Of a DNA stretch of 64,000 bases, positions 48,586-64,000 are shown in pieces. The first letter of the stretch is position 1, and the number at the start of each line of letters is the position of its first letter. This stretch comes from the human T2T-CHM13v2.0 reference genome, Homo sapiens: assembly GCF_009914755.1 (NCBI RefSeq), contig NC_060928.1. One strand, given 5' to 3'. Under the pieces are notes generated by a model. It saw nothing but the letters and a program-made list of their open reading frames with translations, searched no databases and had not been told where the DNA came from. Position numbers and translations under genes: made by a program.

Positions 48586-48913
48586 GTTAAGGACAGCCAG
48601 AGAGAAAGGTTGGGTTACCCTCAAAGGGAAGCCCATCAGACTAACAGTGGATCTCTCGGCAGAAACTCTACAAGCCAGAAGAGATTGGGGGCCAATATTC
48701 AACATTCTTAAAGAAAAGAATTTTCAACCCACAATTTCATATCCAGCCAAACTAAGCTTCATAAGTGAAGGAGAAATAAAATACTTTACAGACAAGCAAA
48801 TGCCGAGAGATATTGTCACCACCAGGCCTGCCCTAAAAGAGCTCCTGAAGGAAGCACTAAACACGGAAAGGAACAACCAGTACCGGCCACTGCCAAAACA
48901 TGCCAAATTGTAA
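48586..48913 (+). pseudogene. L1 ORF1p C-terminal fragment
   Basis: DLSAETLQARRDWGPIFNILKEKNFQP.ISYPAKLSFISEGEIKYF...HAKL*. Confidence 0.95.
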
Positions 48914-48976
48914 AGACCATCAAGGCTAGGAAGAAACTGCATCAACTAACGAGCAAAATAACCAGCTAACATCATA

Positions 48977-51900
48977 ATGACAGGATCAAATTCACACATA
49001 ACAATATTAACCTTAAATATAAATGGGCTAAATGCTCCAATTAAAAGACACACATTGGCAAATTGGATACAGAGTCAAGACCCATCAGTGTGCTGTATTC
49101 AGGAAACCCATCTCACGTGCAGAGACACACTTAGGCTCAAAATAAAGGGATGGAGGAAGATCTACCAAGCAAATGGAAAACAAAAAAAGGCAGGGGTTGC
49201 AATCCTAGTCTCAGATAAAACAGACTTTAAACCAACAAAGATCAAAAGAGACAAAGAAGGCCATTACATAATGGTAAAGGGATCAATTCAACAAGAAGAG
49301 CTAACTATCCTAAATATATATGCACCCAATACGGGAGCACCCAGATTCATAAAGCAAGTCCTGAGTGACCTACAAAGAGACTTAGACTCCCACACAATAA
49401 TAATGGGAGACTTTAACACCCCACTGTCAACATTAGACAGATCAACGAAACAGAAAGTTAACAAAGATACCCAGGAATTGAACTCAGCTCTGCACCAAGC
49501 AGACCTAATAGACATCTACAAAACTCTCCACCCCAAATCAACAGAATATACATTTTTTTCAGCACCACACCACGCCTATTCCAAAGTTGACCACATAGTT
49601 GGAAGTAAAGCAGATGTAAAAGACCAGAAATTATAACAAACTGTCTCTCAGACCACAGTGTAATCAAACTATAACTCAAGATTAAGAAACTCACGCAAAA
49701 CCGCTCAACTACATGGAAACTGAACAACCTGCTCCTGAATGACTACTGGGTACATAACGAAATGAAGGCAGAAATAAAGATGTTCTTTGAAATCAATGAG
49801 AACAAAAAAACAACATACCAGAATCTCTGGGACACATTCAAAGCAGTGTGTAGAGGGAAATTTATAGCACTAAATGCCCACAACAGAAAGCAGGAAAGAT
49901 CCAAAATTGACACCCTAACATCACAATTAAAAGAACTAGAAAAGCAAGAGCAAACACCTTCAAAAGCTAGCAGAAGGAAAGAAATTACTAAGATCAGAGC
50001 AGAACTGAAGGAAATAGAGACACAAAAAACCCTTCAAAAAATTAATGAATTCAGGAGCTGGTTTTTGAAAAGATCAGCAAAATTGATAGACTGCTAGCAA
50101 GACTAATAAAGAAGAAAAGAGAGAAGAATCAAATAGACGCAATAAAAAATGATAAAGGGGATATCACCACCGATCCCACAGAAATACAAACTACCATCAG
50201 AGAATACTCCAAACACCACTATGCAAATAAACTAGAAAATCTAGAAGAAATGGATAAATTCCTCGACACATACACCTTCCCAAGACTAAACCAGGAAGAA
50301 GTTGAATCTCTGAATAGACCAATAACAGGCTCTGAAATTGTGGCAATAATCAATAGCTTACCAATCAAAAAGAGTCCAAGACTGGCTGGATTCACAGCCG
50401 AATTCTACCAGAGGTACAAGGAGGAACTGGTACCATTCCTTCTGAAACTATTCCAATCAATAGAAAAAGAGGGAATCCTCCCTAACTCATTTTATGAGGC
50501 CAGCAGCATCCTGATACCAAAGCCTGGCAGAGACACAACCAAAAAACAGAATTTTAGACCAATATCCTTGATGAACATTGATGCAAAAATCCTCAATAAA
50601 ATACTGGCAAACCGAATCCAGCAGCACATCCAAAAGCTTATCCACCATTATGAAGTGGGCTTCATCCCTGGGATGAAAGGCTGGTTCAACATACGCAAAT
50701 CAATAAATGTAATCCAGCATGTAAACAGAACCAAAGACAAAAACCACATGATTATCTCAATAGATGCAGAAAATGCCTTTGACAAAATTCAACAACCTTC
50801 ATGCTAAAAACTCTCAATAAATTAGGTATTGATGGGACGTATCTCAAAATAATAAGAGCTATCTATGACAAACCCACAGCCAATATCATACTGAATGGGC
50901 AAAAACTGGAAGCATTCCCTTTGAAAACTGGCACAAGACAGGGATGCGCTCTCTCACCACTCCTATTCAACATAGTGTTGGAAGTTCTGGCCAGGGCAAT
51001 TAGGCAGGAGAAGGAAATAAAGGGTATTCAATTAGGAAAAGAGGAAGTCAAATTGTCCCTGTTTGCAGATGACATGATTGTATATCTAGAAAACCCCATC
51101 GTCTCAGCCCAAAATCTCCTTAAGCTGATAAGCGACTTCAGCAAAGTCTCAGGATACAAAATCAATGTGCAAAAATCATAAGCATTCCTATAAACCAATA
51201 ACAGACAAATAGCCAAATCATGAGTGAACTCCCATTCACAATTGCTTCAAAGAGAATAAAATACCTAGGAATCCATCTTACAAGGGATGTGAAGGACCTC
51301 TTCAAGGAGAACTACAAACCACTGCTCAATGAAATAAAAGAAGATACAAACAAATGGAAGAACATTCCATGCTCATGGGTTGGAAGAATGAATATCATGA
51401 AAATGGCCATACTGCCCAAGGTAATTTATAGATTCAATGCCATCCCCATCAAGCTACCAATGACTTTCTACACAGAATTGGAAAAAACTACTTTAAAGTT
51501 CATATGGAACCAAAAAAGAGCCCCCATCGCCAAGTCAATCCTAAGCCAAAAGAACAAAGCTGGAGGCATCATGCTACCTGACTTCAAACTATACTACAAG
51601 GCAACAGTAACCAAAACAGCATGGTACTGGTACCAAAACAGAGATATAGATCAATGGAACAGAACAGAGCCCTCAGAAATAATGCCGCATATCTACAACA
51701 ATCTGATCTTTGACAAACCTGAGAAAAACAAGCAATGGGGAAAGGATTCCCTATTTAATAAATGGTGCTGGGAAAACTGGCTAGCCATATGTACAAAGCT
51801 GAAACTGGATCCCTTCCTTACACCTTATACAAAAATTAATTCAAGATGGATTAAAGACTTACATGTTAGACCTAAAACCATAAAAACCCTGGAAGAAAAC

Positions 51901-63400: not shown

Positions 63401-63874
63401 ATGGCGATCATTAAAAAGTCAGGAAACAACAGGTGCTGGAGAGGATGTGGAGAAATAGGAACACTTTTACACTGTTGGTGGGACTGTAAACTAGTTCAAC
63501 CACTGTAGAAGTCAGTGTGGCGATTCCTCAGGGATCTAGAACTAGAAATACCATTTGACCCAGCCATCCCATTACTGGGTATATACCCAAAGGATTATAA
63601 ATCATGCTGCTATAAAAACACATGCACACGTATGTTTATTTTGGCACTATTCACAATAGCAAAGACTTGGAACCAACCCAAATGTCCAACAATGATAGAC
63701 TGGATTAAGAAAATGTGGCACATATATACCATGGAATACTATGCAGCCAGAAAAAATGATGAGTTCATGTCCTTTGTAGGGACATGGATGAAATTGGAAA
63801 TCATCATTCTCAGTAAACTATCGCAAGAACAAAAAACCAAACACAGCATGTTCTCACTCATAGGTGGGAATTGA
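60445..63874 (+). pseudogene. L1 ORF2p, 5'-truncated and disrupted
   Basis: 406-, 266-, 122- and 119-aa fragments with GDFNTPL, LFADD and FSLIGGN*; stops at 61696 and 62682, frameshift at about 61880. Confidence 0.97.
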
Positions 63875-64000
63875 ACAATGAGAACACATGGACACAGGAG
63901 GGGGAACATCACACTCTGGGGACTGTTGTGGGGTGGGGGAAAGCGGGGAGGGATAGCGTTAGGAGATATACCTAATACTAAATGTCGAGTTAATGGGTGC
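60445..64000 (+). mobile_element. 5'-truncated L1PA3-like LINE-1 (copy B), runs off the window
   Basis: Begins inside the endonuclease domain (CTACAAAGAGACTTAG) after a TT|AAAAA site; ORF2 and 3'UTR continue to the window end. Confidence 0.97.

What the first reader, a model, noticed from the sequence alone, without database searches (positions are those of the whole stretch)
48586..64000. Two separately inserted L1s share one dead-ORF2 haplotype: a possible non-autonomous L1 lineage mobilised in trans
Seen: copy A (48586-53034) and copy B (60445->64000) both read CAACAACC-TTCATGC (50790-50804; 61873-61887). This is one C short of the canonical L1 ...QQPFML, so RT is frameshifted at the same base in both. 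They also share AHNRK, INEFRS, EYSKHHY, YTFPR, AGFTAE, EASSIL, DAENAFD, QGCALSP, ISDFSK, KRAPIA, GIMLP, AICTKL, KDLHV, NSIKKW and YAARK. Known L1 ORF2p (from memory) has AHKRK, INESRS, EYYKHLY, YTLPR, DGFTAE, EASIIL, DAEKAFD, QGCPLSP, ISNFSK, KRARIA, GITLP, AICRKL, KDLNV, NPIKKW and YAAIK. They share 3'UTR changes too (CACAGGAGGGG, AAATGTC). Yet they have different 5' truncation points, different target sites and many private mutations each. Established: L1 shows strong cis preference, so an RT-frameshifted source should rarely make copies. Inference: their common template already lacked a functional ORF2 and had escaped purifying selection. The options are a non-autonomous L1 master copied in trans, local re-retrotransposition, or a long gene-conversion tract.
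Basis: partly seen in the sequence, partly recalled or inferred. Interest (0 to 1): 0.8.

Follow-up and report, generated by a model that had tools for sequence, protein, structure and literature searches.

The report
Gene conversion between neighbouring L1 fossils
Two dead L1 retrotransposon copies about 7 kb apart share some twenty private mutations, most likely because neighbouring repeats copy patches of sequence from each other, which is an ordinary process and not a new parasitic L1 lineage.

Summary
Copies A (48586-53035) and B (60445 to beyond the window) both read CAACAACC-TTCATGC. They share 19-20 substitutions that none of 44 other L1PA copies carry. They have separate target-site duplications and unrelated flanks.

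- The haplotype exists only at these two loci. Two marker k-mers give 2 hits genome-wide, both A and B. Single-change markers recur in 13-43 unrelated copies and never co-occur.
- The one-C deletion is not a lineage marker. It is in 389 copies against 3189 intact ones (10.9%). Two control CCC runs show 0.04% and 0.12%. On a tree of 46 copies it needs 9 separate origins.

The shared changes are neutral (14 nonsynonymous : 3 synonymous, like private decay at 64:22), so they arose in dead DNA.

A-B divergence is uneven along the element (P 0.006-0.017). A random chr1 sample held a second neighbour pair, 18.7 kb apart, with a clean conversion tract.

Best reading (0.75): non-allelic gene conversion between two independently inserted neighbours. 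A retrocopy of A made in trans is not excluded (0.1).

The deletion hotspot at ORF2 codon 611 is the more interesting by-product, and its mechanism is open.

The parts
48571..48585 (.). 5' target-site duplication of copy A (AAAAAAGAACATTTA)
   Evidence: Read directly. Identical 15-mer at 53036-53050.
48586..53035 (+). L1PA copy A. It is 5'-truncated inside the end of ORF1 and holds all of ORF2 (broken), the 3'UTR and an (AAAAT)n tail. It lies in intron 2 of lncRNA LOC100506444, sense strand (annotation given with the finding).
   Evidence: ORF2p match E 7.9e-145 to 8UW3_A residues 366-611.
53036..53050 (.). 3' target-site duplication of copy A
60434..60444 (.). 5' target-site duplication of copy B (AAAAAGGTACA)
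   Evidence: The 3' partner AAAAAAGTACA lies just past the window (L009, about 4105-4115). 10 of 11 match.
60445..64000 (+). L1PA copy B. It is 5'-truncated at position 785 of A, inside the ORF2 endonuclease region, and runs about 115 nt beyond the window end.
50790..50804 (+). One-C deletion in copy A at ORF2 codon 611 (QQP|F). A stop follows 8 nt later.
61873..61887 (+). The same one-C deletion in copy B
49807..52885 (+). Span in A of the 21 shared private changes. A positions: 1222, 1299, 1401, 1466, 1624, 1633, 1692, 1799, 1801, 1921, 2189, 2210 (deletion), 2363, 2549, 2939, 3209, 3498, 3577, 4065, 4216, 4300. The matching span in B is 60892-63985.
50092..50365 (+). Longest stretch in which A and B are identical (272-273 nt). 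It holds three shared private changes, including the EYSKHHY pair, and is the candidate for the most recent conversion tract.
   Evidence: P 0.017 after correcting for regional rate.
49370..49669 (+). Segment at the 5' edge of the A-B homology with no shared private change. A-B divergence here is 5.3%, as between unrelated copies.
51170..51469 (+). Second segment with no shared private change and 5.3% A-B divergence

Best explanation
A and B are two ordinary, independently inserted, 5'-truncated copies of an intermediate L1PA subfamily. They lie in the same orientation, with 7.4 kb between them. After both were dead they exchanged sequence by non-allelic (interlocus) gene conversion. This was probably several short tracts over millions of years, not one event. 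Mutations that arose in one fossil were pasted into the other.

This produced a set of about 20 neutral substitutions found nowhere else in the genome. Some segments stayed as divergent as unrelated copies.

The shared one-C deletion is either one of the transferred changes or arose twice, because that site loses a C in about one L1PA copy in nine.

Shown: separate insertions, uniqueness of the haplotype, neutrality of the shared changes, recurrence of the deletion, uneven divergence. Inferred: the conversion mechanism itself, its direction, and the number of events.
For: - Independent insertion sites: own target-site duplications and no flank homology.
- The haplotype is local only. GAATACTCCAAACACCAC gives 2 hits in 3.1 Gb, both A and B. 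GGCTGGATTCACAGCCGAATTC also gives 2, both A and B. Three single-change markers give 13, 43 and 39 hits, and the lists overlap only at A and B.
- A and B are sisters: SH-aLRT 99, stem 0.0084, tips 0.019 and 0.018.
- The shared changes look like decay of dead DNA: 14 nonsynonymous: 3 synonymous against 64:22 on the private branches (Fisher P 0.76). Strong constraint is rejected at P 0.001 against an assumed dN/dS of 0.25.
- The pattern is a mosaic. After scaling to regional rates from 16 other copies, A-B differences are uneven (chi-square P 0.006 for 150-nt bins and 0.009 for 300-nt bins). The longest identical run of 272 nt has P 0.017. The two 300-nt windows with 5.3% divergence hold no shared private change, and one of them is at the edge of homology.
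- A natural replicate exists. Among 30 copies sampled in genome order on chr1, the closest pair (L044 and L045, 18.7 kb apart, same strand, unrelated 3' flanks) shares 19 rare variants. That pair is 0.3-0.6% divergent over about 600 nt and 2-6.7% elsewhere.
- The numbers fit. Observed divergence of 3.6% against 5.4% expected for independent copies gives about 0.9 conversions per site and predicts about 33 shared changes; 21 are seen. With a recalled L1 rate of 0.17% per Myr, that is within about 3-fold of the published 2.5e-7 per site per generation with 250-bp tracts (abstract of 10.1101/135152).
- Elevated conversion between Alu copies less than 10 kb apart is reported (passage in PMC6598467).
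Against: - The shared changes run across almost the whole overlap (A positions 1222-4300), as one copying event would give.
- Differences are only weakly depleted near the shared sites (P 0.07-0.12).
- Shared-site count and divergence per window are not significantly correlated (Spearman -0.38, P 0.22).
- The 3' kilobase has five shared changes yet 4.7-6.3% divergence.
- There is no GC bias among the shared changes: 8 weak-to-strong against 5 strong-to-weak, compared with 39:45 on the private branches (P 0.38).
- A and B disagree at 4-5 subfamily ladder sites, but this is not more than the background of such discordances in L1PA copies (expected 3.0, P 0.18-0.35).
- The shared set is rich in transversions (7 transitions: 13 transversions against 82:52, P 0.03). 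Conversion does not explain this.
- No outgroup genome was available, so the state before conversion was never seen.
Confidence: 0.75

Rival explanations
1. Local or chance retrocopy. An RNA containing the already dead copy A was reverse-transcribed in trans by another L1's proteins and inserted 7.4 kb downstream as B. The RNA could be the sense pre-lncRNA that runs through A and ends at A's own poly(A) signal.
For: - B is shorter than A and nested within it. It has its own duplication and A-rich tail.
- The shared changes span nearly the whole overlap and are neutral.
- A lies in sense orientation in an lncRNA intron (annotation given with the finding).
- A and B share an AAAAT-patterned tail start. 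Two same-tier copies, L012 and L013, have only one such unit.
Against: - A random insertion lands within 15 kb of its source with probability about 1e-5 (my arithmetic). No local re-insertion bias of L1 is known to me.
- A single copying event predicts even divergence, but the unevenness tests give P 0.006-0.017.
- Trans-mobilisation of defective L1 RNA is rare (cis preference, recalled from Wei et al. 2001, not read here).
- The neighbour pair L044/L045 shows that conversion alone produces the same signal.
Confidence: 0.1
2. One reading: a non-autonomous L1 subfamily with a frameshifted ORF2 that was repeatedly mobilised in trans. A and B would be two of its members.
For: The frameshift is shared and the shared changes are neutral.
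Against: - No third member exists in a complete genome. The two-change markers hit only A and B.
- The frameshift is recurrent, with 9 origins among 13 carriers on the tree.
- No full-length or ORF1-bearing member exists. A itself starts inside the end of ORF1.
Confidence: 0.03
3. Two offspring of one short-lived source element elsewhere, now lost or absent from this genome. They landed near each other by chance, and the C deletion arose later in each or in one.
For: Sister relationship. The deletion is frequent enough (about 7-13% in this age class) for two independent hits not to be absurd.
Against: - The chance proximity is about 1e-5.
- A source able to copy itself should not carry 14 nonsynonymous private changes against 3 synonymous, including K603N in the DAEKAFD motif and R855P.
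- The uneven divergence.
Confidence: 0.05
4. Segmental or tandem duplication of one L1-bearing segment.
For: Same orientation and short distance.
Against: The target-site duplications and 5' ends differ. There is no flank homology in 4 kb on either side apart from an old repeat at 67-72% identity.
Confidence: 0.01

Closest known systems
Non-allelic gene conversion between neighbouring Alu elements (Aleshin and Zhi 2010, as cited in PMC6598467; passage read)
   Same: Dispersed retrotransposon copies that inserted separately become more alike when they lie within about 10 kb. Private mutations move from one copy to the other.
   Different: Here the repeats are 3.6 kb of L1 rather than 300-bp Alus, so many tracts fit within one pair. 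I saw the phenomenon in two pairs only, not in a genome-wide survey.
Non-allelic gene conversion in human gene duplicates (Harpak et al., 10.1101/135152; abstract read)
   Same: Short tracts (mean 250 bp). The per-site rate is an order above point mutation. It slows as the copies diverge. The rate needed here is within about 3-fold (using a recalled L1 clock).
   Different: Those are duplicated genes with homologous flanks. Here homology ends at the L1 borders. The published GC bias is not visible in this small sample.
Trans-mobilised non-autonomous LINE-dependent elements (Alu, SVA, processed pseudogenes; ORF1-only HAL1 elements, recalled)
   Same: Such a template would lack a working ORF2, as the shared changes suggest.
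   Different: Those families have many dispersed members. This haplotype has two neighbouring copies and no ORF1-bearing member.
Multi-kilobase conversion tracts in a Y-chromosome palindrome (PMC3723533; search listing and start of abstract only)
   Same: It shows that tracts of several kb occur in humans, so a single long event is not impossible.
   Different: Those are inverted arms more than 99.9% identical. A and B are direct repeats about 96% identical today.

Membership tests
LINE-1 (L1PA) retrotransposon copy | Sequence encodes L1 ORF2p | tested here: met
   A's open stretch 50049-50798 matches human ORF2p 8UW3_A residues 366-611 at E 7.9e-145. A and B align to 45 other L1PA loci at 92.6-95.5% identity.
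LINE-1 (L1PA) retrotransposon copy | Hallmarks of target-primed insertion: target-site duplication, A-rich tail, 5' truncation | tested here: met
   A has a 15 of 15 duplication. B has 10 of 11. Both have A-rich tails and different 5' ends.
Non-autonomous L1 subfamily mobilised in trans | Many dispersed, separately inserted copies carrying the diagnostic haplotype | tested here: not met
   Two marker k-mers carrying three of the private changes (two changes in one, one in the other) give 2 hits each in the whole genome, all of them A and B. Lists for three single-change markers (13, 43 and 39 hits) overlap only at A and B.
Non-autonomous L1 subfamily mobilised in trans | The disabling lesion is inherited from one master, so it marks a clade | tested here: not met
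   389 carriers spread over all sampled subfamily tiers. 9 changes are needed for 13 carriers on a 46-row tree.
Non-autonomous L1 subfamily mobilised in trans | Full-length members with promoter and intact ORF1 | tested here: not met
   There are no members other than A and B. A begins inside the last ~330 nt of ORF1 and B begins inside ORF2.
Non-allelic gene conversion between paralogous repeats | Donor and acceptor are distinct loci, not a duplication | tested here: met
   Separate duplications. No flank homology.
Non-allelic gene conversion between paralogous repeats | Close, highly similar repeats sharing variants that no other family member has | tested here: met
   7.4 kb apart, same strand. 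19-20 shared substitutions absent from 44 other copies and, where tested, from the genome.
Non-allelic gene conversion between paralogous repeats | Mosaic structure: tracts of low divergence beside unconverted segments | tested here: met
   Chi-square P 0.006 and 0.009. Longest identical run 272 nt, P 0.017. This is moderate support only: local depletion of differences near shared sites has P 0.07-0.12.
Non-allelic gene conversion between paralogous repeats | The partners keep different subfamily-diagnostic states outside the tracts | tested here: inconclusive
   4-5 of 31 ladder sites are discordant, and at 4 of them A has the older state. The empirical background predicts 3.0 (P 0.18-0.35).
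Non-allelic gene conversion between paralogous repeats | GC-biased transmission | tested here: inconclusive
   8 weak-to-strong: 5 strong-to-weak among the shared changes against 39:45 among the private ones, P 0.38.
Non-allelic gene conversion between paralogous repeats | Orthologous loci in outgroups show the pre-conversion state | not testable with these tools
   Only the window's own genome is held. No other primate assembly is available.
Segmental duplication | Homology continues into the flanks | tested here: not met

The most novel reading that the evidence does not exclude
The shared frameshift belongs to a genome-wide class. One particular C, in a CCC run at ORF2 codon 611, is missing in about 11% of L1PA copies, 90-270 times more often than at two other CCC runs. 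It has arisen many times independently.

The boldest reading not excluded is that part of these deletions are made during retrotransposition itself. L1 reverse transcriptase would slip at the foot of a small RNA hairpin. At least 2% of primate L1 insertions would then be born with ORF2 cut off after the endonuclease and half of the reverse transcriptase.

For the A/B pair itself, the boldest surviving reading is a local retrocopy of a dead, intron-borne L1 (about 0.1).
Probability: 0.25. Interest if true: 0.6.

Novelty: new member of a known kind. Interest (0 to 1): 0.3.

Why it matters
For the pair itself, little changes. It is one more case of neighbouring repeats homogenising each other.

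It is still a useful warning. Shared private haplotypes between nearby L1s, and trees built from them, should not be read as source-offspring links or as new subfamilies. The signal turned up twice in the small sample examined here.

The by-product may matter more. A single-base deletion hotspot in ORF2 would mean that hundreds of L1 loci end ORF2 at the same place. If expressed, they would give an endonuclease-bearing but polymerase-dead protein, a class discussed in PMC4176336 (passages read). The same frameshift in two L1s is therefore weak evidence of common descent.

Tried and rejected
- **Subfamily explanation.** I tested whether the shared residues are simply an older L1PA consensus. 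This is rejected for 13 of the 15 residues, which none of 44 other copies has. It is accepted for GIMLP and KDLHV.
- **Deletion carriers as one dead lineage.** Rejected. They scatter over the tree and over age classes.
- **Compensating insertion near the deletion.** None appears in the 190 nt upstream in 11 carriers. A stop follows 8 nt downstream.
- **Ladder-site test for different origins of A and B.** It looked significant with a naive expectation. It dissolved once I measured how often L1PA copies carry out-of-tier states: 26 seen in 17 crown copies, giving an expectation of 3.0 for A against B.
- **GC bias of the shared set.** None.
- **Tracts shared with other chr4 copies.** L049-L051, L010 and L013 each carry one of the A/B variants. 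Each shares only that one variant, so no tract is seen.
- **Larger samples of deletion carriers and full-length neighbours.** The tree therefore rests on 13 carriers and 33 non-carriers.
- **Literature.** Searches, and passages, gave no mention of a deletion hotspot at this ORF2 site or of this locus. That covers only the held library and those terms. Khan et al. 2006 (L1PA ages) is not held, so ages and the 0.17% per Myr rate are recalled.
- **Exact L1PA subfamily name.** Not assigned, because no repeat library is available. "Intermediate tier" is defined by my own 31 ladder sites.
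Full report
**What is there.** The window is human chr4. Copy A (48586-53035, plus strand) starts inside the end of ORF1 and runs through a broken ORF2 and the 3'UTR to an A-rich tail. It is flanked by a perfect 15-nt duplication. Copy B starts at 60445, which corresponds to position 785 of A. It runs about 115 nt past the window end to its own tail and has a 10-of-11 duplication. The flanks are unrelated. The two copies are 95.5% identical over 3561 nt. Both read CAACAACC-TTCATGC. Against the solved human ORF2p (8UW3_A), this removes one base at codon 611, just after the DAEKAFD motif, and a stop follows.

**Is the shared haplotype a subfamily?** I aligned A and B with 45 other L1PA loci from the same genome. 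These were 11 that carry the deletion, 30 taken in genome order that do not, and 4 chosen for another marker. One aberrant row, L033, was left out of the analyses. A and B share 19 substitutions that are absent or nearly absent from the other 44 copies, and P556A makes 20. GIMLP and KDLHV are older-subfamily states. Genome-wide, the 18-mer with the two EYSKHHY changes and the 22-mer with D474A each occur twice, in A and B only. Three single-change markers occur 13, 43 and 39 times in unrelated copies, and their lists overlap only at A and B. So the haplotype is confined to these two loci in a complete genome.

**The frameshift is not private.** The 33-mer with the deletion occurs 389 times and the intact 34-mer 3189 times, so 10.9% carry the deletion. 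Two other CCC runs in the same part of ORF2 show 2 deleted against 5052 intact and 7 against 6070. An extra C at the same site occurs twice.

- On a maximum-likelihood tree of 46 rows, with the deletion's own columns removed, the 13 carriers need 9 changes.
- The share rises with subfamily age. It is about 2.0% and 5.1% in the two youngest classes, about 12.8% in the next, and 21.7% in the oldest. The first and third figures come from subtracting counts made with different anchors and are approximate.

The same frameshift in two L1s says little about a dead common master.

**What the shared changes are.** A and B are sisters: SH-aLRT 99, stem 0.0084, tips 0.019 and 0.018. Their total depth is like that of copies branching nearby. 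In ORF2 the shared changes are 14 nonsynonymous to 3 synonymous, no different from the private decay of the two copies (64:22). This is incompatible with an assumed dN/dS of 0.25 (P 0.001). The changes therefore arose in DNA that was already dead. They are somewhat rich in transversions (7 transitions: 13 transversions against 82:52, P 0.03), which I cannot explain.

**Which local process.** Duplication is excluded by the flanks and the target-site duplications. Two options remain: conversion between two separate insertions, or a retrocopy of A (or of one dead template). Four points bear on the choice.

- *Evenness.* A single copying event predicts even divergence. After scaling to regional rates from 16 other copies, A-B differences are uneven (P 0.006 and 0.009), and the longest identical run of 272 nt is unexpected (P 0.017). 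Two 300-nt windows are as divergent as unrelated copies (5.3%) and hold no shared change. One of them is at the edge of homology.
- *A second example.* In the chr1 sample, the closest pair of copies (L044 and L045, 18.7 kb apart, same strand, unrelated 3' flanks) shares 19 rare variants. It has a clean tract of about 600 nt at 0.3-0.6% divergence, against 2-6.7% elsewhere. The process demonstrably acts on neighbouring L1s.
- *Prior odds.* A trans-made retrocopy lands within 15 kb of its source with probability about 1e-5, whereas similar-aged same-strand L1 neighbours are common. This is my own arithmetic, not a tool result.
- *Rate.* Observed divergence (3.6% against 5.4% for independent copies) implies about 0.9 conversions per site and predicts about 33 shared changes; 21 are seen. 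With a recalled L1 clock this is within about 3-fold of the published human rate (abstract).

**What did not discriminate.**

- Depletion of differences near the shared sites is weak (P 0.07-0.12).
- The correlation between shared sites and divergence per window is not significant.
- There is no GC bias.
- A and B differ at 4-5 of 31 subfamily ladder sites. L1PA copies in general carry out-of-tier states about ten times more often than random mutation predicts (26 in 17 copies), so 3.0 such differences are expected anyway.
- The shared changes span almost the whole overlap, which a single event would also give.

The retrocopy reading therefore keeps about 0.1.

**Comparison with what is known.** Conversion between nearby Alu copies and between gene duplicates is established. 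This is another instance, in L1. It is not a member of the class of trans-mobilised non-autonomous elements, because the defining feature of many dispersed members was tested and not met.

**Limits.** No outgroup genome and no repeat library were available. Subfamily ages are recalled. The conversion itself is inferred, not observed.

Noticed in passing
window 50790-50804 and 61873-61887; genome-wide: There is a site-specific one-C deletion hotspot at L1 ORF2 codon 611. 389 copies are deleted against 3189 intact. Two control CCC runs show 2/5052 and 7/6070, and only 2 copies have an extra C at the site. It has about 9 origins among 13 carriers on a tree, and its share rises from about 2% to 22% with subfamily age. 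In 6 of 6 older-type copies the predicted fold puts the CC-TT of the run at the foot of a small hairpin (AAGG..TTGA..TCAA..CCTT). It does not do so in 2 of 3 youngest-type copies. The mechanism is open: a clock-like DNA hotspot fits the age gradient best, and reverse-transcriptase slippage is not excluded. It was not found in the papers searched.
   Followed up: partly
L044 and L045 (G000:C1:69.78 and 69.80 Mb): A second pair of neighbouring, same-strand, separately inserted L1PA copies, 18.7 kb apart, shares 19 rare variants. It has a clear tract of about 600 nt at 0.3-0.6% divergence. Their 3' ends are only 90.9% identical.
   Followed up: partly
G000:C4 56.38-57.74 Mb (outside the window): Five other L1 copies within about 1 Mb each carry exactly one of the A/B private variants. 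The P556A type is at 57.368 and 57.736 Mb, the I514S type at 56.385 and 56.739 Mb, and the K603N type at 56.820 Mb. Under a uniform spread 0.06 are expected, or 0.6 if local L1 density is ten-fold higher (P 4e-4). For the three fragments fetched and the two longer loci, no neighbouring variant is shared. This is either very short conversions or coincidence.
   Followed up: partly
fetched loci L007-L043: Young L1PA copies carry 'old' states at subfamily ladder sites far more often than their tip lengths predict: 26 in 17 copies over 27 sites, against roughly 3 expected. This suggests that mosaicism or recurrent change at these sites is widespread. It weakens diagnostic-site arguments in L1 phylogeny.
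   Followed up: no
window 49807-52885 / 60892-63985: The shared private substitutions are transversion-rich (7 transitions: 13 transversions) compared with the private branches (82:52; P 0.03). None is a CpG transition. Unexplained.
   Followed up: no
L001 and L002 (G000:C1:12.45 and 12.73 Mb): Two inverted L1 loci share 160 rare variants and the deletion, and have tips of 0.003-0.005. This looks like a recent segmental duplication carrying an old L1.
   Followed up: no
window 52975-53035 and L009 4075-4105: Both tails begin with the same AAAAT repeats, about 9 units in A and 3 in B. Two same-tier copies have one unit. The sharing may extend into the tail.
   Followed up: partly
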